Below are positions 1 through 9,867 of a stretch of 26,936 nt of DNA, in pieces. Made by a program: the position numbers and the translations under genes. Each line of letters starts with the position of its first letter. The stretch's first letter is position 1. Location: assembly GCA_019057475.1 (NCBI GenBank), contig DXJO01000019.1, positions 1-26,936 on the forward strand, given 5' to 3'. This DNA comes from Candidatus Thorarchaeota archaeon (GTDB lineage: Archaea; Asgardarchaeota; Thorarchaeia; Thorarchaeales; Thorarchaeaceae). Under the pieces are notes generated by a model, which was given only the letters and a program-made list of their open reading frames with translations, was not told where the DNA came from and searched no databases.

Positions 1-227
1 GTAGAATCTGCAAAGCAGACCTCAATGAATCAGGAACCGAACATCAGTCAAGGACATTGATGTCCAGGATTGTGCAAGTTTCGGGCAACGGCTTTGCCCT
101 TGCTCCTATCCCTAGGATACCGATAGATAGGCTAATAAGCCAAACAGATGGGCGAGTGATAGAATCCCGGAACGCCATCCAAAACGCCCCAATTTGGGTC
201 GGGAAAGGGATCTAGGAGACCAAGACA

Positions 228-647: not shown

Positions 648-670
648 GAGTAGACGCGAATCTCGTAATG

Positions 671-683
671 GGTTCCGTAACTG
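671..683 (+). repeat. 13-bp direct repeat, left copy (GGTTCCGTAACTG)
   Basis: Exact match to 9289-9301. Confidence 0.95.
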
Positions 684-712
684 CTTCAATGAACTTAGCC
701 AATCTTGGACAT
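684..712 (+). repeat. Left-end imperfect inverted repeat / putative TnpA-binding motif array
   Basis: CTTCAATGAA-CTTAGCCAATCTTGGACAT aligns to the reverse complement of 9259-9288 (GTTCATTGAAACTTGGACAAAGTTGGACAT) at 23 of 30 columns. CTT-initiated units fall at 684, 694 and 704 (10-bp period). Confidence 0.8.
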
Positions 713-718
713 TTATTA
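712..718 (+). promoter_or_regulatory. Possible TATA box for tnpA (leaderless)
   Basis: TTTATTA about 24 nt upstream of the ATG at 742, abutting the left-end motif array. Confidence 0.35.
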
Positions 719-741
719 GGTGACTATTGAAGTAAAGACCT

Positions 742-1330
742 ATGTTCTCAGTATCACAGGTTGCTCTCAGACTTGGTGTGTGTTCAAAGACCTTTAGACA
801 GTGGGACAAGAAAGGTCACATCAAGTGCTTGCGTACTCCAGGCGGACACCGGAGGATACCACTATCCGAGGTCAATAGACTCCTTGGTAAGTTGCACAGA
901 CAACTCATTGAAGGCCCATTTCGAAAACAGTGCGCGGTCTATGCACGAGCTTCAGACCATCGTCAGAAGACTGATGGTGCTCTTGATAGACAACTCAAGG
1001 TCCTTACTCAGGAATGCAAAAAACGCTACAGGACCAGTCCTTTAGTCTTCACTGACATTGGCTCAGGACTCAACATGCGGCGGAGGGGACTCAAGAAACT
1101 CCTTACATTGGCACAGAGAACAACTGTCAGTACTCTCATCATCACACATAAGGACAGACTAACCCGGTTCGGTCTAGAACTCATAGAACGTATACTCGAA
1201 GACTACGGTGTCAGACTTGAAGCCCCTATCAACCTGAACAGCAGAGTCCACAGGAGGAACTTGTCACTGATATGATGCACTCCTCGCATCCTTCTCTAGT
1301 AGGATCTATGGATTCCGATCGGGACAGACA
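742..1330 (+). pseudogene. tnpA: IS607-family serine transposase TnpA with two frameshifts near the 3' end (true pseudogene or sequencing error); 3' limit approximate
   Basis: N-terminal MerR-like wHTH (VALRLGVCSKTFRQWDKKGHIKCLRTPGGHRR) and serine recombinase motifs YARAS, DIGSGLN and THKDRLTRFG. The in-frame ORF stops at 1275. The canonical C-terminus continues in shifted frames: QQSPQEELVTDMM (frame from 1227), then ALLASFSSRIYGFRS (from 1277). Confidence 0.9.
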
Positions 1331-1343
1331 AAGATGACACAGG

Positions 1344-4300
1344 TCATTGCTCATAAAATCTCACTCCTCGCTCCTCTAGCTGCACCTTGATATCATCAGT
1401 GATCTCTTCTATAACGTCCTCATCAATATCGTATTGAGTGAGCATGCTATGTACTTCTTCTTCAATTATTGTGGGTTCAATTCCTCCTGATAATTTAGTC
1501 CAGTCAAGATAGTGGTGTATCCATCCTGTCACCTTCACGTCCATACGGCTTCCGTTATCTGACACAAGAATAGCTACTATTACTTGACCTCCCGACCCAT
1601 CTCTTTGTATACTCAAGCCCTCATATTGGAACCTTACAGGCCCTTGTTCCTCAATGAGCTCAATATACTCTCCTATCTCTTCTTGGACTAGACTCTGCAT
1701 CCTCTCATTTCCCTCAAGGTCTAGCTCACTGAGTAAGACTTCCATCCCCTTCCAGAGTAGCTCTTCTAGCTTCTCAGGTTGCATTTGCTCTGCCCTACTC
1801 TGTACCATCTCGTGTTTCCTCATCTCTCCAGTTACTTGCGACAACATCCTGAACTCCACCTTGTCCAGATGGAGCTTTATTTCAGGTGTCCACTCCTCAA
1901 GGATGTACGTCCCTGGGAACACTGGTTCATCTATCACTACCTGTCCTCTGCGACGTATCTGCATTAAGTGGATGCTCTCCCTGAACTCCCTTGGAAGACT
2001 CTTCGTGTCAGGAGTGTCGAACTCATGAACCACCCACTGTTGGTCGGGCGACTGATACATGAAACACCCAGTCAACAGAATGGCTGCCAGTTCTGGACCG
2101 CCCATCCGGAACTCCTCTATCATCTTATAACTCACAGGAATTGGGTTGTCATCGACCAACTCTACTCTCCAGCAGGTCCCATGTCTGTACATCGACTCGT
2201 TCAGGAGGGGATCAGGTTGACCTTTTGAACCATCAATGCGTTCCAGATACTCCTCGACATCACTCTTAGCCTTCTGACCTCTCTTCTCCAGTTCCTCAAT
2301 GGGGACACTCCTGAGCGGGCAGACAGAGGGGTCATGGTGGACACTGAGCCTGAGTCCGGTCAGTATTTCTGCCTGTAGGAATTGCTCTGCAGTTGGTGGT
2401 AGTCCCATCGTGGTGAACTTGAACGGACTCTTCCTCTCTACCCATGGTCTGAAGACCGTTGCATCACCCTTGTACTCGATGTCACTGAACCTGTTCCATG
2501 CAAACCGTCGTCCATTCACAACGACAGGTTCACACTCATAGTCAGGTCTGTGGAGCAGCTCCAGCGCATCCACAGTCCTCTTCACGAGTAGACGGACTGT
2601 TTCACCATTATCATCCAGTATCTCCTTGTCATCCTTATGAAACGTGAGCACATACATCTGTTCCTCTCTGTCAACTGATACATGACACTCCACGGACTCA
2701 CAGTTTCTGAATACTGCATTGATGAGCTCCAGTGACAGGTCGACACGTTCTCTCAGGTCAGAGGGAGGGCTACGTACATCAGTCATATCGATTGAGATGA
2801 AATTGCGTTCCTCTCTCAGAGTGTACGACCTGAGAAGTGTCACAGGCTCTCTTCGTCTTGTGAAGTACTCTAACCGTCCAACTGGTGTCCAGCTCTCACT
2901 GCCAGGTTCAAGGATCCACAGTCCAGTGAGTCCGCGTTGTTCTGCGACCATGATGGGGGTCCTGTCCGAGAGCCTAGATGCTGTGGCACACTCGCTTAGC
3001 TTTGTGAGGTCGGTTTCTCCCCAGTGAGGCCTGTCACGGAACAGCTCTTGAAGCATTTTGAGTGGTCCCTTCAGAGAGTCTTCGTGTACAGGAACAAGAG
3101 TGGCATTCATCTCATGGCTCCCAGATCGGTTCTGAAATATTAACCAAATTCCCATGGTGTCGATGGTCGGTTCCGATGTTTCGACACACTCACGTCTGAC
3201 CAAGACCATCTCTCCAAACCTGACATTACTGGCGTGTCTTGTATTTCCAGTGAGGATTCCAAGTGCTCTAGCCCTGTTGCGAAGACTCTGGAGGAGCTTT
3301 GTCCTGTGAAGGATGGACTCCCCGGTCTTGTGTGCGTCGTGGTACTTGGGAGTGAAACCGAGTCCCGTCAGCTGCCATGGAACAACATAGTCCCAGATCT
3401 CCTGTATTGCGTGTGTCATCCTCCCCACAATCTTTGCTGACCGGACCGCAGCGAGCAGAAGCAGAAACAGATGGTTCCCGGTTATCATAAGGATGTCCGG
3501 ATGACGCCGCAACAACTGTTCGACATACTGTCGTTGATGATAATTCAGACTGGGTGGTATCCATGACCGGACCTTTCGCAGTGTGTTCCAGAGACCTCTG
3601 CTCAAGGCATCAAGCTCGAGGAAACGCCGGATCGCACGCAACGAGTTCATCGCGTCCTGAGAGCTCTCACCACGCGTTCCTCTCACGCTCACAAGTATCT
3701 CTCTAAGGTCATCAAGGAATTCACTCCATTCCTTTGACTCCAATTTGTTTCTCCTGAGAAAGCTCAGTGCCTGTCCAATCTCAGCGAGCTCATTCCTTGC
3801 AATTGTAAGGTCATCACAGCCATCCACCACCATCAGCGCTTCGTGGGGCGGCCTCGTGTTGACCTTCAGATGGTCGACACCTAGACGTGTGGTCCGGTAT
3901 TCGCGTCGATGGTTGATATGGTGCATCGGTTCGAGACGCTTGACCCTGCCATCTGTCCTCAACTCTGTTCTGAACTGGTACGGAGTGAGTGTCAACCGAG
4001 AAGAGAGTGGTGATGGAGAGTCCGGAGTGTCAGGAAGAGGTGACCTGTGTGTCTTGACCTCTTTGGCATCGAGGCTGTCCAGCATTGGCGCGCAGATATG
4101 TGGTAGGAGTTCGAGCGCTGTATCGATGTCATCCTCCCCATAGGTGGTAAGGGGTCGGCCTCTGGTACCACCAGAACCTGTAGTCTTGTGGTAGATCTTC
4201 TGTCTTGGTTCATCTTGTTTCTTCTTGCCCTCATCCGACCGGAATCTCTCACCCCATTCTCGAAGGACATCGATCACTACCAACTTGGTCTCGACATCGT

Positions 4301-6812
4301 TCGGACTCTCAATCACTATCATTCGGACATCATCGTCAGCGGGGGCGTAGGCCCCGAAGCGTGGTGGTGGCATCGGTGTGTTCCACACTATCTCATCTAC
4401 ATAGTGCATCCACGGACTGCCTGTGTAGAAGGGTCCGACACAACGAGTGTCGTATCTCTGACTGGTAGCACTGAGCGGCACTGGGCGCCCGAACCACACC
4501 AATTTGGAGTCCTTTGGAACATCATCAAGGAACTGTATCAGGAACTCGTCTAGGACATCAGTCAGGTGCGCAGGTGTACTCTTTCGGACCATGTCCCATC
4601 CAGTGACAATGATGAATGGTCTGTGAGCCTGGCTCATGACGGAACGAGTTGACTTAGTCACATCACTGATTGAGTTTCTGTCATGGATGTATGCACGAAG
4701 GACGGATGACACATTAACGAACCGGACTCGTCTCTTGACGAATCGCTGTATTGACGACGAGTGTGACTTGAGTCTGAGTCGTGTTGCTCGGAGTACAGGG
4801 TCTGAGTATTCGCCGGTGAGGTCAAACCAGACAACATCCCTGTGCTTTCCTCGCACAAGTTGATGGACATACTGCAGACCATGCCACTTGGCTGCGACTC
4901 TCGCGGCTGACTCTGCTGGTGAGCCCTTTCCCGCCACAGACAGATACAAGGTGAACTTGCGGTCATCTCTCCTCTTTCTCCGGTAGCGGAACGAGTCGAA
5001 ATGTTCGAGTCGCTGTAATGGGGTTTCAACTGTGTCGTCTGCACCCTCAGAGAACACCACCAACCCCATGTGAAGCGACCGGTCCTCCGGCTGGAGCAGT
5101 TCCCTGTCAGCGATGCGTCCCTGTTGCGTCTTCCTGTATGCATCAATGACAAGTGACGGTAGATGTTCCCGTATCTCCTCCCAGTTCTCCTTTGAGTCCA
5201 CCACAAGGACTGCCTGTATCAGGTCATCAGGGGGGGAGTCGTCAGCACGTGCTATCCTCCGATAGTCTGAGATCAGAGCAGCAGTGTATGCACTGAGCTG
5301 CCTCTTCTCGTATCTCGACGGTGTTCCAGCGATGACTCTCTCCCACTCATCGTCTGTCATCTTACGTCGGTCAAGGACAGGCTCAACGACTCTGACAGTC
5401 AGGTCTGAAGACCTTGTGCCTACAGCATACAGGTCTAGGTTGAATGAGCTCCTTGTCTTGATCTCGATCACCATGCATGGTTCCCAGACCACTGTGTCCG
5501 GGGAGTCGTCAGCGTGAGGGAGGGTCTTCCTTCTGAAGAGCACGAGATCAACGCGACCTGTGCCATCTGCAACCGACACCTCGGCTATCAGAAGTAGTCC
5601 CGAAGTATCTGGTGCCATGGTGTCCCCATAGCGGATTGGACCGTACATGGTGAAGGGCGCTCGTGTTGAGTCGGCATGAGAGATGAAGTCGTGGAGAGCG
5701 ACACCCATTCTGCGGCTCTCCTCGTTAGCTAGCTGTAGTATGTGTTCCGCATCTCTATGTGTCAGAGTCCCATTCTCAACAAGGTCTTTGACAAACTCGA
5801 TATGGATCTTCCAGTCTGGGAGTAACTCTGTCTGACACTTGTCGACAATACGGAGGATGAGACCCTTGTAATCTTCAGACTCGTAACTGGGAACTGTACC
5901 CTCATCATCAGTCTTGTTCTCATCGATTGCGGGTACATCAAAGTGGATGAGTTCATCGTCGTCAACACACGCATCGCTCAAGCTTTGGGTCATCTCTGAG
6001 TCTTGCGTTGTTTCTGTATTGTCCATACTCTGCGAAATAGTCGATGTAATAGACTGGGAGCGCCCATTCCGTTTCCCGAACTGAGTACGTATCCTAAGTA
6101 CGATCTCTCTCAGTTCCTTTGCTCCATCAGGTGTGAAGTGTGCTCGGCCAGAGCGTCTATCAGTATAGACATAGTCCAAGAAGGGTGTCAGTCTGTCTAT
6201 GAGTTCGTCGATATATCTCTTAGCTGCACGTTGAGGAAGGCCATACTTCAGACACTGTCTGCATAGTTCAATCAGGTGACTTCGAATCATGTCTGCGAAG
6301 TCTAGCTCGGGCATGGAGTGTGTTGGGATGTATTCCGGGTCACGAGAGCTTCCAGGGTAACCAAAGACCATAGATCCATCCTGATTCACAATCCGTCGAA
6401 CACCAGGGAACGGGTATCGTTCCATGGCAACATCACGCAGTCTGCTTCCAGCATAGTCCCATAACTGGTTGAGATACCTCCTGTTCTCCCCTCTCCTCTT
6501 TCGCTTCACCTCAGTGTTACCATATCTTACTGAGGTCTTCAGCATGATCTTCTGAAAGTTGCGACGGATGTTGTTCTCGACATCTTGCAGTACTGTGGCT
6601 TTTGGCGACTTTTCCTGAACAGTCTTGTAGTACTCCCTTTTAGCATCATCCCAAATCCTTCGCATACCTTTCCTGCCATTGCCTCCTCCGTAGAGAGGAT
6701 AGGTTTTGTCTGTAACCCTTTCGCGTGCAAGGACCAGTGTAGCCGAGAGTCCAAGCTTAAGTCCCCTTGTCAGCACTCTTCCGGGCTTTCTCGGAGGCGT
6801 AGGAATTGGCAT
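1344..6812 (-). CDS. Large hypothetical protein (1822 aa) with a PD-(D/E)XK nuclease domain and a degenerate P-loop-like region
   Basis: 5.5-kb uninterrupted ORF with its own BRE-TATA promoter. Nuclease motifs AEVSV..GRVDLV...VIEIKT...RQLSAY. P-loop-like motifs LSVAGKGS, VVWFDLTGEY and FIIVTGWD. Confidence 0.8.
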   Translation of the reverse strand: MPIPTPPRKPGRVLTRGLKLGLSATLVLARERVTDKTYPLYGGGNGRKGMRRIWDDAKREYYKTVQEKSPKATVLQDVENNIRRNFQKIMLKTSVRYGNTEVKRKRRGENRRYLNQLWDYAGSRLRDVAMERYPFPGVRRIVNQDGSMVFGYPGSSRDPEYIPTHSMPELDFADMIRSHLIELCRQCLKYGLPQRAAKRYIDELIDRLTPFLDYVYTDRRSGRAHFTPDGAKELREIVLRIRTQFGKRNGRSQSITSTISQSMDNTETTQDSEMTQSLSDACVDDDELIHFDVPAIDENKTDDEGTVPSYESEDYKGLILRIVDKCQTELLPDWKIHIEFVKDLVENGTLTHRDAEHILQLANEESRRMGVALHDFISHADSTRAPFTMYGPIRYGDTMAPDTSGLLLIAEVSVADGTGRVDLVLFRRKTLPHADDSPDTVVWEPCMVIEIKTRSSFNLDLYAVGTRSSDLTVRVVEPVLDRRKMTDDEWERVIAGTPSRYEKRQLSAYTAALISDYRRIARADDSPPDDLIQAVLVVDSKENWEEIREHLPSLVIDAYRKTQQGRIADRELLQPEDRSLHMGLVVFSEGADDTVETPLQRLEHFDSFRYRRKRRDDRKFTLYLSVAGKGSPAESAARVAAKWHGLQYVHQLVRGKHRDVVWFDLTGEYSDPVLRATRLRLKSHSSSIQRFVKRRVRFVNVSSVLRAYIHDRNSISDVTKSTRSVMSQAHRPFIIVTGWDMVRKSTPAHLTDVLDEFLIQFLDDVPKDSKLVWFGRPVPLSATSQRYDTRCVGPFYTGSPWMHYVDEIVWNTPMPPPRFGAYAPADDDVRMIVIESPNDVETKLVVIDVLREWGERFRSDEGKKKQDEPRQKIYHKTTGSGGTRGRPLTTYGEDDIDTALELLPHICAPMLDSLDAKEVKTHRSPLPDTPDSPSPLSSRLTLTPYQFRTELRTDGRVKRLEPMHHINHRREYRTTRLGVDHLKVNTRPPHEALMVVDGCDDLTIARNELAEIGQALSFLRRNKLESKEWSEFLDDLREILVSVRGTRGESSQDAMNSLRAIRRFLELDALSRGLWNTLRKVRSWIPPSLNYHQRQYVEQLLRRHPDILMITGNHLFLLLLAAVRSAKIVGRMTHAIQEIWDYVVPWQLTGLGFTPKYHDAHKTGESILHRTKLLQSLRNRARALGILTGNTRHASNVRFGEMVLVRRECVETSEPTIDTMGIWLIFQNRSGSHEMNATLVPVHEDSLKGPLKMLQELFRDRPHWGETDLTKLSECATASRLSDRTPIMVAEQRGLTGLWILEPGSESWTPVGRLEYFTRRREPVTLLRSYTLREERNFISIDMTDVRSPPSDLRERVDLSLELINAVFRNCESVECHVSVDREEQMYVLTFHKDDKEILDDNGETVRLLVKRTVDALELLHRPDYECEPVVVNGRRFAWNRFSDIEYKGDATVFRPWVERKSPFKFTTMGLPPTAEQFLQAEILTGLRLSVHHDPSVCPLRSVPIEELEKRGQKAKSDVEEYLERIDGSKGQPDPLLNESMYRHGTCWRVELVDDNPIPVSYKMIEEFRMGGPELAAILLTGCFMYQSPDQQWVVHEFDTPDTKSLPREFRESIHLMQIRRRGQVVIDEPVFPGTYILEEWTPEIKLHLDKVEFRMLSQVTGEMRKHEMVQSRAEQMQPEKLEELLWKGMEVLLSELDLEGNERMQSLVQEEIGEYIELIEEQGPVRFQYEGLSIQRDGSGGQVIVAILVSDNGSRMDVKVTGWIHHYLDWTKLSGGIEPTIIEEEVHSMLTQYDIDEDVIEEITDDIKVQLEERGVRFYEQ

Positions 6813-6836: not shown

Positions 6837-6852
6837 TTTATATACTTTTTCG
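6837..6852 (-). promoter_or_regulatory. Archaeal BRE + TATA promoter for the 1822-aa gene (leaderless)
   Basis: The minus strand reads CGAAAAAG-TATATAAA, with the TATA box ending 25 nt before the ATG at 6812. Confidence 0.75.
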
Positions 6853-6937
6853 GGTTAGGTCTGAAAGCAATTCATCCATTTAAACCCCTTCTGTCAGACA
6901 ATCACACATTTCCGACAACACTTTAATCTAATCTTGT

Positions 6938-7071
6938 TAATATTATATCGGTGTTTATAAGGATAAACCCATCATAAGACTCTGAGGAAGGACATTGACA
7001 CAAGAAATCCAGCGCCGTCCCTGGAAGCAGTACAAGCAGCATAAGACAATGGATGGTAATATTATATCGGT
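6938..7071 (+). repeat. 15-bp exact direct repeat TAATATTATATCGGT (6938-6952 and 7057-7071)
   Basis: Two identical copies 119 bp apart around the tnpB 5' region. Confidence 0.85.
6954..6960 (+). promoter_or_regulatory. Putative TATA box for tnpB
   Basis: TTTATAA in the AT-rich divergent intergenic region, 35 nt before the TTG at 6995, with an RBS-like GAGGAAGG at 6984-6991. Confidence 0.5.
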
Positions 7072-9286
7072 TGGATCTCGAAGACCCCACCAGTATCTTG
7101 TGGAGTCCTTTGCACTCAACTCCTACCACAGAAAGGTGTCAAGGAAGGGTAAAGGGAGAGTACCAGACCCCCAATTCAGAAAGAGGGCAGTGAGCCAGGT
7201 ACAGACTCTCTCAAGGACTGCTACTGGTCGGAAGTGTGGTTTCGTTGATCTCAAGACACTCACAGACCACTTTCAAAGATATTGTAAAGCAGTCAACCTT
7301 ATCCTTGAGCAAGTGTACTCCAATGACAAACACTCTGAGGAGATTGGTGAGAGACTGAGGAAGAGCAGGTCACGTGGTTATGTCGTACTGATGAAGGAAC
7401 ACGACCTCAAGTGGGCCAAGGACAACGAGTTCGGTGAGCTGGTCTTCGGAAGGATGCATAGGAATGCTCTTGAGGCTGCTGCTCGGATAATCCTCGCTGA
7501 CCACACAAGGAGGAAACTCGTTAGGACACTCGTGAATATACTTGTAGAGTCAGAGGATGACTTGAAAAGACTCATGAAGAACAAACGAGTCCCAGCTGAC
7601 CTCATCAGACGCGTCCGTGACCAGTCTGAAACAAAGCATAATGGGTCCGGTTTCTATTACGCTCTATCTGCATGCAAACAAGTCCGGCGAGTCCTTGACG
7701 AACTTGTTCTCTCGAAGATACCGAAACCCCCTGTTGAAAGGCAGGCCTCCGTTCATCATAATGGGCATGCCTCTATTTCAGAAGACAGACTTGCCTCTGT
7801 TTCTGCAGAGAGAACCGACTCACCACTGCCGAACGACCAAGCACCCAGAAAGCAACGCATTCGCGGAGGGCGCAGAGCAAGACAGAGAGCGAAAGTCAGG
7901 GAGTCATGGAAGGACAAGTCCAAGAATTCTGAGAGTATCAAAGACCTCATTCGCTCTGAGGTCACTCGTTGGAGCAAGGAGGGCTTTCCATTCACGACGC
8001 CTGTTTTTAAGGCAACCACTGAGGACTTCAGCGCGAGCACAGAGAACATGACTGGTCAAGGTTATTGGGTTAGGTCTGACCCTGAACGACCTGACGAGAT
8101 CATCCTCTACATCAAGACCCCACCCGGTCTACAGAGTGCTGAATGTGATTCAGACTCACCCTATCGGAGTCAGACACTCCGTTTCAGGTTCCTGAACTGG
8201 TTCCCTAGGAAGGCCAAGAGAGCGCAAAAAAAGGCGGAAGAGGCAAGAGCGGCTGGGAACATTTCTAGGGCAGAGCAACTGACTTTCAGGGTTGCCGTCT
8301 TCACAGACATGAGCGAGCAGTTGATGAACACCATTGCACTGCACCATGTCGCGCGAGAACTGACAAACCTCAAGGCACGGAAAGACCTAGACACAGAAAG
8401 AATTGTGGAGCTTGAGGGACAACTCAAGAAACTGCGAACATCTCGAAGGTCTGCTCCCCCACGACTCCAGCTCCGAGGGAACAGAGTCATCTTCTCAATA
8501 CCGTTCCTGTCACCAGATAAGAAACTACTTGAGAAGACACTTGAGACCCCTGAACTCACAGCCTATGCAGGGGTTGATAGGGGGATACGCTTTCCAGTGG
8601 TGTTGTCAGTCTGTGATGAATATGGCACATATCACGACAGACACATCAGTCACAAAGGGTTGTTCGCAAAGCGAGAACGACTCAGACATAGGACCAGAGA
8701 ACTCAGTTCACAGATAGACAGAAGAAAGAACAACTGGGAGAAGAAGCACCCGGGGCTGCAGGCACCAGCCTATATCCTGAAAAAGGAGATGGAGCTGGCA
8801 TCCGTGTGGCGAAAGGTCAGACGCCTCGACCGCGAGATCTCCCATCTAGTCGCATCTGCGACGGTCTGGTTCTGTGAGAAGCATAGGGTGAAGACTGTCT
8901 ACTTCGAGGACCTCCGTTCCTTCCAAGGGAAGGGCGGGATGCACTCACACAGCTGGAGATTATCGACAAACCTTTGGGGACTCATGATTGAGGGAGTCAG
9001 GTATCGAAGACAGGCCATGGGTCACAGGAGAGGTGGTGTCTGGACAGTGAACCCCGCGTGGACCTCACAGACCTGCAGTCGATGTGGAGAGAGAGGTGTC
9101 CGTGTGAAGCGCCCCGATGACACAGAGGAGATGAGAGGAGGAGAGCATTTCTTCTGTCCTCACTGTCAGATAAGCCTGCACGCCGACGTTAACGCGGCGC
9201 GTAACATTATTAAAGTAAAGCACGAGGCCAGTGCCGTTCCTGGCCGGACAGGACAGCGATGTCCAACTTTGTCCAAGTTTCAATGA
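6995..9286 (+). CDS. tnpB: Large TnpB/Cas12-like RNA-guided endonuclease (763 aa; 698 aa if the GTG at 7190 is used)
   Basis: RuvC-I AGVDRG, RuvC-II VYFEDL, VNPAWTSQTCSRCG...FFCPHC zinc finger and RuvC-III HADVNAARNI. All three acidic catalytic residues are present. Confidence 0.92.
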   Translation: MTQEIQRRPWKQYKQHKTMDGNIISVGSRRPHQYLVESFALNSYHRKVSRKGKGRVPDPQFRKRAVSQVQTLSRTATGRKCGFVDLKTLTDHFQRYCKAVNLILEQVYSNDKHSEEIGERLRKSRSRGYVVLMKEHDLKWAKDNEFGELVFGRMHRNALEAAARIILADHTRRKLVRTLVNILVESEDDLKRLMKNKRVPADLIRRVRDQSETKHNGSGFYYALSACKQVRRVLDELVLSKIPKPPVERQASVHHNGHASISEDRLASVSAERTDSPLPNDQAPRKQRIRGGRRARQRAKVRESWKDKSKNSESIKDLIRSEVTRWSKEGFPFTTPVFKATTEDFSASTENMTGQGYWVRSDPERPDEIILYIKTPPGLQSAECDSDSPYRSQTLRFRFLNWFPRKAKRAQKKAEEARAAGNISRAEQLTFRVAVFTDMSEQLMNTIALHHVARELTNLKARKDLDTERIVELEGQLKKLRTSRRSAPPRLQLRGNRVIFSIPFLSPDKKLLEKTLETPELTAYAGVDRGIRFPVVLSVCDEYGTYHDRHISHKGLFAKRERLRHRTRELSSQIDRRKNNWEKKHPGLQAPAYILKKEMELASVWRKVRRLDREISHLVASATVWFCEKHRVKTVYFEDLRSFQGKGGMHSHSWRLSTNLWGLMIEGVRYRRQAMGHRRGGVWTVNPAWTSQTCSRCGERGVRVKRPDDTEEMRGGEHFFCPHCQISLHADVNAARNIIKVKHEASAVPGRTGQRCPTLSKFQ

Positions 9287-9288
9287 AC
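9259..9288 (-). repeat. Right-end imperfect inverted repeat / TnpA-binding motif array
   Basis: TGTCCAA tandem at 9260 and 9270 (10-bp period) followed by TTCAATGAAC; inverted partner of 684-712. Confidence 0.8.
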
Positions 9289-9301
9289 GGTTCCGTAACT
9301 G
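9289..9301 (+). repeat. 13-bp direct repeat, right copy (GGTTCCGTAACTG)
   Basis: Exact match to 671-683. Confidence 0.95.
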
Positions 9302-9312
9302 AGGGAACCTTG

Positions 9313-9867
9313 ATGCCATCTATCCTAATCACAACTTCTCGACGGACATCTAACAGAGTTCGCTCTTTTGTACGCGACCTCTGGACTGTGCTCCCCGGCA
9401 CTGAGCGATTCAACCGCGGCGGAATGAGCATAGCCGAACTTTCGTCACGAATCAAGCAGTCGAGAGCAAGTGCTGCCATTATAGTGTCGCTTTTCAAGGG
9501 GAATCCGAGGAGTCTGCAGATATTATCCCCAGATGGAGGGCAACTAATGGAGGTGCAGATGGAGAGTGCCAAGCTTCGCCGCGAGGTGGCTTCCTCACGC
9601 GGTCCGAAAATGCGTGCTATCCATTCGATAGCCGTCCAGAGTGGAGCTGGTGAACAGACCAGAGCAATCGCTGAAATGCTGAGCGCGCTCTTAGATACAC
9701 CTATTGCTGAATCAACGGAAATTGTGGCTGTTGGATCAGAAGGCATGAACGAGGTTGTAGTGTGGCTTCAGGACTTCCCAACCGGCAAAACTCTCTGGAC
9801 ACATTATCATGCAAAAGATGGTCTTGAGATCGGGCCAAGGATGAGGATCACCTCGGTTACCGTGTAG
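9313..9867 (+). CDS. Brix-domain (Imp4-like) ribosome biogenesis protein
   Basis: ILITTSRRTSNRVRSFVRDL...FNRGGMS...GNP...EIGPRMRI. Start moved to the ATG at 9313 (GAGGG RBS) because the upstream in-frame part lies inside the transposon end. Confidence 0.9.
   Translation: MPSILITTSRRTSNRVRSFVRDLWTVLPGTERFNRGGMSIAELSSRIKQSRASAAIIVSLFKGNPRSLQILSPDGGQLMEVQMESAKLRREVASSRGPKMRAIHSIAVQSGAGEQTRAIAEMLSALLDTPIAESTEIVAVGSEGMNEVVVWLQDFPTGKTLWTHYHAKDGLEIGPRMRITSVTV

What the first reader, a model, noticed from the sequence alone, without database searches (positions are those of the whole stretch)
9221..9306. Very compact pseudoknotted omegaRNA inside the tnpB 3' end; predicts guide and TAM
Seen: a 6-bp stem whose loop CCGTTC pairs with the terminal GAACGG, plus a 10-bp bulged stem capped by a GCGA tetraloop, all within ~65 nt. 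The same bases encode the TnpB tail and form the TGTCCAA end motifs, so the DNA has a triple use. Known: TnpB/Fanzor omegaRNAs end in a pseudoknot just before the guide. Inference: the scaffold ends at 9290, the guide is TTCCGTAACTGAGGGA..., and the TAM is approximately (A)TGGG (668-672). From memory this resembles the G-rich TAM of a clostridial IS607 TnpB; that needs verifying. A big protein with a small RNA would parallel the Fanzor/Cas12 trend of protein replacing RNA scaffold.
Basis: partly seen in the sequence, partly recalled or inferred. Interest (0 to 1): 0.78.

Follow-up and report, generated by a model that had tools for sequence, protein, structure and literature searches.

The report
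Guide-RNA scaffold of an Asgard transposon
The stretch is the conserved 3' core of the guide RNA (omegaRNA) of an RNA-guided TnpB nuclease carried by an IS607-type jumping element in a Thorarchaeota (Asgard archaeon) genome.

Summary
Window 9226-9290 holds a 6-bp hairpin whose loop CCGTTC is complementary to the terminal GAACGG. It also holds a bulged hairpin capped by GCGA. Related right ends give about 875 matches in 57 of 86 genomes of the same family. They show compensatory changes in stem 1, in the outer stem 2, and at one pseudoknot pair (C-G, U-A, G-C, U.G).

The guide and TAM predictions hold. Five congeneric genomes carry the empty site, which reads TGGG directly followed by TTCCGTAACTGAGGG. 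Published IS607 TnpBs use a TGGG or GGG TAM and a scaffold ending in CGG.

"Very compact" is not supported. Gene-less miniature copies carry a TATA-like box, a covarying 5' hairpin and a further helix, giving a scaffold of about 108 nt. tnpB-linked copies show a hairpin with covariation at synonymous codon positions (9181-9199). The 65 nt are therefore the conserved core of a scaffold of about 110 nt.

This scan had already found the same RNA in miniature elements of other Thorarchaeota genomes. It is a new member of a known kind.

New here is a second pseudoknotted module at the tnpB 5' end (6983-7056). The 13-17 nt that follow it are repeated just upstream of the TATA box in 11 of 12 loci.

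The parts
669..672 (+). Predicted TAM, 5'-TGGG. The last two G (671-672) are the left core dinucleotide.
   Evidence: The empty site in 5 congeners reads ...aatGGG|TTCCGTAACTGAGGG. Family left junctions have A/T at -2 (13 of 14), G at -1 (12 of 14), then GG, then T (13 of 14). Published IS607 TAMs are TGGG and GGG.
673..683 (+). First 11 nt of the left end, TTCCGTAACTG. They are identical to the first 11 nt of the predicted guide.
   Evidence: A 13-bp direct repeat lies at 671-683 and 9289-9301. It is present once in the empty sites. No such repeat is seen at the miniature copies or at the G001:C31 copy.
684..741 (+). Left-end body: CTTCAATGAAC, then TTAGCCA and TTGGACA (inverted TGTCCAA motifs), then a TATA-like TTTATTAG before tnpA.
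   Evidence: Sequence. The same left end is found at 88-93% identity in congeners.
742..1275 (+). tnpA, an IS607-family serine transposase.
   Evidence: NCBIfam NF033518 transpos_IS607 scores 141.7 bits, above the cut-off of 110. Pfam finds a MerR-type HTH plus Resolvase.
1344..6812 (-). 1822-aa gene, divergent from tnpB. This pairing is conserved.
   Evidence: The same divergent pair occurs at C54 and C9 of this genome and upstream of tnpB in L087, L085, L081 and L080. There is no Pfam hit.
6935..6961 (+). Upstream copy of the 15-nt repeat (6938-6952), followed by the TATA-like box TTTATAAG (6954-6961).
6983..7071 (+). Second omegaRNA-like module in the tnpB leader. It comprises UGAGG...GACAC; hairpin UCCAG/CUGGA (7008-7012 with 7021-7025); loop CCGUCC (7015-7020) pairing with GGAUGG (7051-7056); the likely start codon at 7049-7051; and the repeat copy at 7057-7071.
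   Evidence: R1 hits in the window and in L079. Over 11 loci, 98.3% of cells are paired and 4 of 6 pseudoknot pairs covary. The repeat is present in 11 of 12 loci.
6995..9286 (+). tnpB, 763 aa from TTG or 745 aa from ATG 7049. The RuvC D-E-D triad and the zinc ribbon are intact.
   Evidence: Pfam PF07282. Alignment to Cas12f chains 7l48 and 8hr5. NCBIfam guided_TnpB scores 60 bits, below the cut-off of 100.
9181..9199 (+). Probable upstream hairpin H0 of the scaffold: CGCCG-a-CG uuaa CG-CGGCG, lying inside the RuvC-III codons.
   Evidence: Pair 25-37 sits at synonymous codon positions and reads UA 7, AU 3, CG 2, GC 1, other 4. RNAalifold predicts the hairpin independently. It also appears in the RNAfold of 9130-9290.
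9226..9245 (+). Stem 1, 6 bp, with the loop UGCCGUUC.
   Evidence: 96-99% of cells are paired, and the two basal pairs covary (GC, UA, CG, AU).
9246..9274 (+). Stem 2: an outer GGACA/UGUCC helix, a 5-nt 3' bulge, an inner GGACA/UGUCC helix and a GCGA cap.
   Evidence: The outer helix is 89-96% paired, with GC to UA and GC to CG changes and an ACA/UGU to ACG/CGU change. The inner helix varies by lineage.
9285..9290 (+). 3' strand of the pseudoknot, GAACGG, pairing with 9234-9239. It is also the end of the scaffold, and GG at 9289-9290 is the right core dinucleotide.
9291..9310 (+). Predicted guide template, TTCCGTAACTGAGGGAACCT. The guide length is not known.
   Evidence: This is host DNA, continuous with the left flank in the empty sites. 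The only other near match in this genome is the 11 nt at the left junction.

Best explanation
Window 9226-9290 is the conserved 3' core of the omegaRNA (right-end RNA) of the TnpB nuclease encoded at 6995-9286. This TnpB belongs to an 8.6-kb IS607-type element of a Thorarchaeote.

Proposed mechanism (inferred steps are marked below). The RNA is read through from tnpB into the flank. Its scaffold folds into stem 1, a bulged stem 2 and a pseudoknot. The pseudoknot joins the stem-1 loop to the last six scaffold bases (GAACGG). The scaffold most likely also includes an upstream hairpin at 9181-9199, so it is about 110 nt long, not 65 nt.

The guide is the host DNA that follows (TTCCGTAACTGAGGGA...). 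Together with a 5'-TGGG TAM, it matches exactly the empty insertion site. After excision by the serine transposase, or on meeting an empty allele, TnpB would cut that site, and repair from an occupied copy would restore the element. The occupied right end is spared because it reads ACGG instead of TGGG.

Shown here: the anatomy, the conservation and covariation, the element boundaries, the empty site, the target-site consensus and the intact RuvC triad. Inferred: transcription, binding by TnpB and cleavage.
For: 1. The structure is present and is recovered by RNAfold.
2. Covariation holds on three independent alignments. A2 has 39 right ends: 91.8% paired, 0 of 500 shuffles reach the covariation score. 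A5 has 17 tnpB-linked ends: pseudoknot pair 6 reads CG 13, UA 3, GC 1, and H0 covaries at synonymous sites. A6 has 28 miniature elements: 9 pairs have changes on both sides, reached by 2 of 500 shuffles. RNAalifold finds stem 1, the outer stem 2 and H0 on its own.
3. All copies end in ...ACGG and then diverge.
4. Empty sites in 5 congeners join TGGG to the predicted guide.
5. The family target consensus is (A/T)GGG|T.
6. Literature: IS607 TnpA_S uses a GG core. CboTnpB has a TGGG TAM, a scaffold ending UCGG and discrimination at position -3. The ISXfa1 reRNA is about 150 nt with three stem-loops and a pseudoknot between an apical loop and the 5 nt next to the guide, proven there by compensatory mutants.
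7. tnpA passes the IS607 equivalog cut-off, and TnpB keeps the D-E-D triad.
8. Gene-less copies conserve the same fold without any ORF, behind a TATA-like box.
Against: There are no expression or binding data. Pseudoknot pairs 1-3 never vary, and pairs 4-5 are mismatched in several lineages (CCGCUC and CCGUCC loops). G.U and A.C mismatches are about equally common (48 against 42), so wobble pairs do not show which strand folds. The fold energy of the 70-nt core is only marginally better than shuffles. H0 is only 4-7 bp and is broken in the closest relative, L079. TnpB scores below every curated TnpB cut-off. Part of the sequence conservation must also serve transposase binding (the TGTCCAA motifs).
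Confidence: 0.78

Rival explanations
1. The conserved inverted repeats are DNA-level recognition sites for the serine transposase at the right end (subterminal TGTCCAA arrays), not an RNA structure.
For: TGTCCAA occurs twice at the right end and inverted (TTGGACA) at the left end, here and in the miniature copies. The terminal ...AACGG is needed for GG-core recombination. The G.U against A.C counts are not strand-specific.
Against: Pairing is kept while the sequence changes: GGAC/GUCC becomes GUAC/GUAC or GCAC/GUGC, and CUUG/CAAG becomes CUUA/UAAG or CCUG/CAGG. In tnpA-less lineages the first TGTCCAA decays but the helix stays. The pseudoknot links positions 50 nt apart and covaries. Miniature copies place a TATA-like box in front of the fold. 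The two roles can coexist, so this fails only as the sole explanation.
Confidence: 0.08
2. The omegaRNA is truly minimal, about 65 nt. On this view the upstream hairpin in the coding region is incidental.
For: In tnpB-linked copies, full nucleotide conservation (all codon positions) begins only at stem 1 (conservation line of A5). H0 is short and is broken in L079, L090, L087 and C54.
Against: Miniature relatives keep a covarying 5' hairpin and the helix GGAGU:ACUCC upstream of stem 1, behind their own promoter. H0 shows all four Watson-Crick combinations at synonymous sites in 13 of 17 loci. Known IS607 reRNAs are about 150 nt.
Confidence: 0.2
3. The RNA that TnpB mainly binds lies elsewhere, in the omegaRNA-like module in the tnpB leader (6983-7056). 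On this view the right-end fold serves only transposition.
For: The leader module has the best covariation of all: 98.3% paired, with 4 of 6 pseudoknot pairs changing on both sides. It is followed by a lineage-specific 13-17-nt segment.
Against: The right-end fold is the one multiplied in hundreds of gene-less copies. It sits where all characterised TnpB guide RNAs sit. Its guide matches a real empty site next to a canonical TGGG. The leader's putative target is preceded by TTGT, TTGG or CTGG, not GGG. Both modules may be bound.
Confidence: 0.05
4. The structure is a relic. This copy is no longer active, and the fold is conserved only by recent descent.
For: This genome holds a single tnpA-bearing copy, and no other full target for the guide exists in it.
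Against: tnpA, tnpB (with its RuvC triad) and both ends are intact. Five congeners have the site empty, so the insertion is recent. Near-identical copies sit at other sites in congeners.
Confidence: 0.1

Closest known systems
omegaRNA/reRNA of IS607-family TnpB (CboIStron of Clostridium botulinum; ISXfa1 of Xylella fastidiosa)
   Same: It overlaps the 3' end of tnpB. The scaffold ends in ...CGG at a GG core dinucleotide. The TAM is TGGG or GGG and equals the transposase's target motif. The guide is the flanking DNA that matches the donor joint. A pseudoknot joins an apical loop to the 5-6 nt next to the guide.
   Different: The host is an archaeon (Thorarchaeota). TnpB is 745-763 aa instead of about 400 aa and falls below the curated TnpB cut-offs. 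A 5.5-kb gene lies between tnpA and tnpB. There is no group I intron. The first 11 nt of the guide also occur at the left junction. There is no sequence similarity to any Rfam family.
Stand-alone omegaRNA miniature elements of Thorarchaeota
   Same: They share the same right-end fold, the same ...AAUGAACGG terminus, the same pseudoknot and the same GGG|T target. In this genome there are a family of about 207 nt and one of about 283 nt.
   Different: Those are gene-less and have their own TATA-like box, a 5' hairpin and the helix GGAGU:ACUCC. The window copy is the protein-coding parent type. Its RNA overlaps the tnpB reading frame, and a GNRA-capped inner hairpin replaces that helix.
aCas1-associated TnpB loci of Asgard archaea (Cas1H-Asgard-1/-2; PMC10691335)
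   Same: The host is an Asgard archaeon. A giant gene is conserved next to tnpB. A single conserved T precedes the variable sequence downstream of tnpB (T at +1 in 65 of 72 copies), which that paper proposed as the guide.
   Different: The downstream GTTCACTCA motif reported there is not found after these right ends. A Cas1 fold in the giant protein could not be confirmed here. This copy also carries a bona fide IS607 tnpA.
Guide-length-dependent binding without cleavage, as in the ISDge10 TnpB 10-nt guide (PMC13507860)
   Same: It is a precedent that a nuclease-active TnpB engages DNA without cutting it when only about 10 nt pair. The 11-nt match at the left junction and the 13-17-nt leader repeats are in this range.
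   Different: That is an engineered system in human cells. Nothing of the kind has been shown for a natural element.

Membership tests
IS607-family insertion sequence | Serine recombinase TnpA with an N-terminal MerR-type HTH | tested here: met
   NF033518 transpos_IS607 scores 141.7 bits against a cut-off of 110. Pfam finds HTH_17/MerR plus Resolvase.
IS607-family insertion sequence | Matching GG core dinucleotides at both ends, and insertion at GG in the target | tested here: met
   GG lies at 671-672 and 9289-9290. The empty site has a single GG(G). The family junction consensus is given.
IS607-family insertion sequence | No target-site duplication | tested here: inconclusive
   Here 11 nt beyond the GG are identical at both junctions. 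The miniature copies and the G001:C31 copy show none. The origin of the repeat is unresolved.
IS607-family insertion sequence | Compact tnpA-tnpB unit of about 2 kb | tested here: not met
   The element is 8618 bp, with a 5.5-kb gene between tnpA and tnpB. A 3.44-kb relative without that gene exists at G001:C31.
TnpB omegaRNA (IS607 type) | Encoded at the right end, overlapping the tnpB 3' end, with the scaffold ending at the element boundary in ...CGG | tested here: met
.
TnpB omegaRNA (IS607 type) | Pseudoknot between an apical loop and the bases next to the guide | tested here: met
   There are 6 complementary bases, and pair 6 covaries. The same architecture has 4 covarying pairs in the leader module. 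Function was not tested.
TnpB omegaRNA (IS607 type) | Guide plus TAM match the empty (donor-joint) site | tested here: met
   Empty sites in 5 congeneric genomes.
TnpB omegaRNA (IS607 type) | The RNA is made, bound by TnpB and directs TAM-dependent cleavage | not testable with these tools
   This needs RNA sequencing, RIP and interference assays.
TnpB omegaRNA (IS607 type) | Scaffold of about 100-150 nt with several stem-loops | tested here: inconclusive
   The core is 65 nt. H0 at -110 is supported by synonymous-site covariation. Miniature relatives have a scaffold of about 108 nt.
Any Rfam family | Match to a curated covariance model | tested here: not met
   There is no hit at gathering score in the window. 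Only two chance-level hits (E of 0.9 or more) appear in 6850-9400.
aCas1-associated TnpB (Cas1H-Asgard) | Neighbouring giant protein with a Cas1 fold | tested here: inconclusive
   The conserved divergent gene pair is confirmed. There is no Pfam hit and no PDB sequence hit. The N-terminal model reached only pLDDT 55.7 and matched only helical bundles.
aCas1-associated TnpB (Cas1H-Asgard) | Variable region downstream of tnpB bounded by a conserved T and a GTTCACTCA motif | tested here: inconclusive
   The conserved T is present. The motif is absent from 13 of 15 right flanks and from the window flank. The paper's supplementary alignment was not available.

The most novel reading that the evidence does not exclude
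The TnpB of this family may use partial guide matches to regulate its own element.

The tnpB mRNA leader is an omegaRNA mimic: a hairpin plus a pseudoknot whose 3' strand holds the start codon. The 13-17-nt 'guide' that follows is kept identical to a sequence abutting the TATA box of the same promoter. That sequence differs between lineages but co-changes in both copies.

Likewise, the first 11 nt of the right-end guide match the left junction next to a proper TGGG, upstream of the tnpA promoter.

Matches this short would let a nuclease-active TnpB bind without cutting. That would give RNA-guided autorepression of tnpB, and perhaps control of tnpA and excision. It would be a natural counterpart of the engineered short-guide mode of TnpB.
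Probability: 0.25. Interest if true: 0.8.

Novelty: new member of a known kind. Interest (0 to 1): 0.5.

Why it matters
The finding gives a concrete, testable omegaRNA, TAM (TGGG) and 20-nt target for an unusually large, uncharacterised archaeal TnpB. The target is validated by natural empty sites, which is rare for metagenome-derived systems. The finding also ties the hundreds of gene-less miniature elements of Thorarchaeota to their protein-coding parent. It corrects the idea that this large TnpB has a minimal RNA.

The leader module is the part that could change thinking. If it works as proposed, it would show a transposon nuclease reading a second, self-directed guide.

Tried and rejected
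- Rfam gave no match at gathering scores or at relaxed E-values.
- I tried to infer the strand from wobble pairs. G.U against A.C was 48 against 42, which is not decisive, so I make no claim from it.
- I looked for an identity between flank and left end, like the 13-bp repeat, at all other right ends of this genome. None of 10 nt or more was found, and the G001:C31 copy has none. The repeat is therefore not a general product of insertion. I could not decide between target mimicry of the left end and a repair scar.
- I tested the giant protein for a Cas1 fold. Pfam, phmmer against the PDB, and a 7-sequence AlphaFold model (pLDDT 55.7) searched with VIA-align gave only generic helical-bundle matches. 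This is inconclusive.
- The GTTCACTCA motif of PMC10691335 was not found after these right ends.
- The small hairpin GUUU/GAAC that RNAfold draws at 9277-9288 is not conserved in relatives, and it competes with the pseudoknot. I rejected it.
- A helix GGAGU:ACUCC enclosing stem 1, strongly covarying in the miniature copies, has no counterpart in the window copy.
- PMC7307682 (Makarova 2020) is not held in the library.
Full report
**What is there.** The window is contig C53 of a 3.34-Mb archaeal genome. Relatives found with the TnpB protein are all labelled Candidatus Thorarchaeota.

Between 671 and 9301 lies an insertion of 8618 bp. It carries four things:
- an IS607-family serine transposase gene at 742-1275 (NF033518, 141.7 bits, cut-off 110);
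- a 1822-aa gene on the other strand at 1344-6812;
- a 763-aa TnpB-like gene at 6995-9286, whose last 240 residues align with Cas12f/TnpB RuvC and zinc-ribbon domains with the D-E-D triad intact;
- the stretch in question at its very end.

**The observation.** GGCCAG (9226-9231) pairs with CTGGCC (9240-9245) around the loop TG-CCGTTC. Then come GGACAGGACA, GCGA, TGTCC, AACTT and TGTCC (9246-9274). GAACGG lies at 9285-9290, and the tnpB stop is at 9284-9286.

RNAfold draws both hairpins. The energy is only marginally better than shuffles: z = -1.89 for 70 nt and -2.84 for 161 nt. Chance is excluded by comparison, not by energy.

**Relatives.** BLAST of the right end against the window's own genome finds about 48 related ends. 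A few follow tnpB paralogues. Most belong to gene-less miniature elements: a family of about 207 nt, a family of about 283 nt that breaks many contigs, and smaller families.

A covariance model built from 18 own copies finds about 875 matches in 57 of 86 genomes of the same family. A protein-based scan added 13 tnpB-linked loci from other Thorarchaeota. Every copy ends in ...A(A/U)GAACGG and diverges immediately after it. This fixes the scaffold end at 9290.

**Covariation in the core.**
- On 39 right ends, stem 1 is 98% paired and its two basal pairs take GC, UA, CG and AU forms. The outer helix of stem 2 is 94% paired, with GC to UA and GC to CG exchanges.
- Individual sequences show GGAC/GUCC replaced by GUAC/GUAC or GCAC/GUGC, and ACA/UGU replaced by ACG/CGU.
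- The inner part of stem 2 is plastic. It is GGACA-GNRA-UGUCC in the window's lineage. It is CUUG(A)/(U)CAAG in most tnpB-linked lineages, with compensatory CUUA/UAAG and CCUG/CAGG. It is other short helices in the miniature copies.
- This plasticity argues that a helix is selected at that place, not the TGTCCAA word.

**The pseudoknot.** Pairs 1-3 (CCG:CGG) never vary. Pairs 4-5 are mismatched in some lineages. Pair 6 is C-G in 13, U-A in 3 and G-C in 1 of 17 tnpB-linked ends, never unpaired. It is U.G or C-G in the miniature copies.

The pseudoknot is therefore supported, though by one covarying position. It matches the published architecture: in ISXfa1 the five bases next to the guide pair with an apical loop, proven there by compensatory mutants.

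**How long is the RNA?** The miniature elements carry a TATA-like box (consensus GCTTAWATA) about 22-25 nt upstream of a further hairpin (yUGAGG...GACAC...CCUCA). That hairpin has four pairs changing on both sides. RNAalifold adds a strongly covarying helix GGAGU:ACUCC that encloses stem 1. Read as an archaeal promoter (my inference from the known TTTAWATA box at about -26), this gives a scaffold of about 108 nt.

In tnpB-linked copies, full nucleotide conservation starts only at stem 1. However, the codons for the RuvC-III motif H-A-D-x-N-A-A form a hairpin (window 9181-9199). In it, the third base of the first Ala codon pairs with the third base of the next-but-four Ala codon. The combinations are U-A 7, A-U 3, C-G 2, G-C 1 and mismatched 4. 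RNAalifold predicts this hairpin unaided.

So the 65 nt are the conserved core, and the scaffold most likely spans about 110 nt. I put about 0.2 on the truly compact alternative. The idea that a large protein has taken over RNA functions has no support here.

**Guide and TAM.** Five congeneric genomes have the site empty. Their sequence runs ...CGTAATGGG directly into TTCCGTAACTGAGGGAACC, with small variations. Two of them have a changed GGG, and two have a mismatch in the first seven guide positions.

Left junctions across the family read (A/T)-G-GG followed by T, and right flanks start with T in 65 of 72 copies.

The recalled clostridial parallel checks out. CboIStron TnpA_S needs a GG core and prefers TGGG. 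CboTnpB needs a TGGG TAM, its scaffold ends UCGG, and the G at -3 distinguishes target from self. ISXfa1 depletes GGG. Here the self site reads ACGG.

**A complication.** The first 11 nt of the guide are also the first 11 nt of the left end (13-bp repeat including GG). The RNA therefore has a TGGG-flanked 11-nt match to the occupied left junction, which is the only other match in the genome.

Other copies do not show such a repeat. Close copies of the left end in other genomes read GGG, T, 4-5 variable bases, AACAG, CTTCAATGAAC. I could not decide whether the target mimics the left end or the repeat is a repair scar.

**A second module.** The covariance model also hit 7001-7056, at the start of tnpB, and the same place in L079. 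Alignment of 11 loci shows a hairpin (UCCAG/CUGGA, CGCGG/CCGCG, AGCGG/CCGCU, CCCGG/CCGGG). Its loop (C/U)CGU(C/U)C pairs with the six bases GGA(C/U)G(G/A), which start at the G of the likely start codon. Overall 98.3% of cells are paired, 7 of 11 pairs change on both sides, and 4 of those are in the pseudoknot.

The compensatory changes alter amino acids (R to Q together with R to W). This suggests the RNA, not the peptide, is what selection keeps.

The 13-17 nt after this module are repeated 116-151 nt upstream, directly before a TATA-like box, in 11 of 12 loci. The repeated sequence differs between lineages but is the same in both copies. For example, the window has TAATATTATATCGGT twice and L079 has TAAGATTATATCGGT twice. 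Control segments match 6-7 bases on average.

This looks like a guide and its target, or a self-renewing duplication. The bases before the upstream copy are TTGT, TTGG or CTGG, not GGG, which speaks against ordinary TnpB targeting. A published engineered TnpB binds without cutting when given a 10-nt guide, so autoregulation is conceivable. I rate it at about 0.25.

**Comparison and novelty.** The stretch works like, and passes the testable defining features of, an IS607-type TnpB omegaRNA. It has no Rfam family.

This scan has already described the same fold in miniature elements of other Thorarchaeota (e1-5383733, e1-5560841, e1-5560634). PMC10691335 noted a conserved T followed by a variable, possibly guide-encoding, region downstream of Asgard tnpB genes.

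It is therefore a new member of a known kind. Its value lies in the natural validation of guide and TAM, in the link between the parent element and its miniature offspring, and in the unexplained leader module.

Noticed in passing
window 6935-7071; also L079 2880-3030 and ten other tnpB loci: An omegaRNA-like hairpin plus pseudoknot overlaps the tnpB start codon. It is followed by a lineage-specific 13-17-nt segment that is repeated just upstream of the TATA-like box of the same promoter. Both copies co-change between lineages.
   Followed up: partly
window 671-683 and 9289-9301: A 13-bp direct repeat flanks the 8.6-kb element and is present once in the empty sites. As a result, the predicted guide has a TGGG-flanked 11-nt match to the element's own left junction, about 30 nt upstream of a TATA-like box before tnpA.
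   Followed up: partly
L093-L106 (left ends in other genomes); window 673-683: Near-identical tnpA-bearing left ends differ only in the 4-6 bases right after GGG(T). The following AACAG and CTTCAATGAAC are conserved. In some miniature copies these variable bases resemble the right flank, for example C45 with TAACAAA on both sides.
   Followed up: no
G001:C31:9494-12947 (L096, L112); L079: A 3.44-kb relative has the same tnpA, tnpB (95% identical at the 3' end) and ends, but lacks the giant gene. Only the first codons of that gene remain. The 5.5-kb gene has therefore been lost or gained within one genus.
   Followed up: partly
window 1344-6812 (-); G000 C54:166144-171513, C9:16552-20991, C42:28784-34195, C18:41721-46181: The 1822-aa protein has four paralogues (27-44% identity). 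In three of the five loci it lies divergently next to a tnpB-like gene. No family was recognised.
   Followed up: partly
window 1-92: The contig starts inside a copy of the ~283-nt miniature element. About 45 copies, many at contig ends, fragment this assembly.
   Followed up: partly
L020, L021, L023-L025 (empty sites): Two of the five empty sites have a changed TAM (TTGG, TGGT). Two have a mismatch within the first seven guide positions. These may be neutral changes or escape from cutting.
   Followed up: no
G000 C54:173903-174030: The right end of the C54 paralogue lies about 45 nt from the 3' end of a tRNA gene on the opposite strand. L087 has a homologous flank.
   Followed up: no
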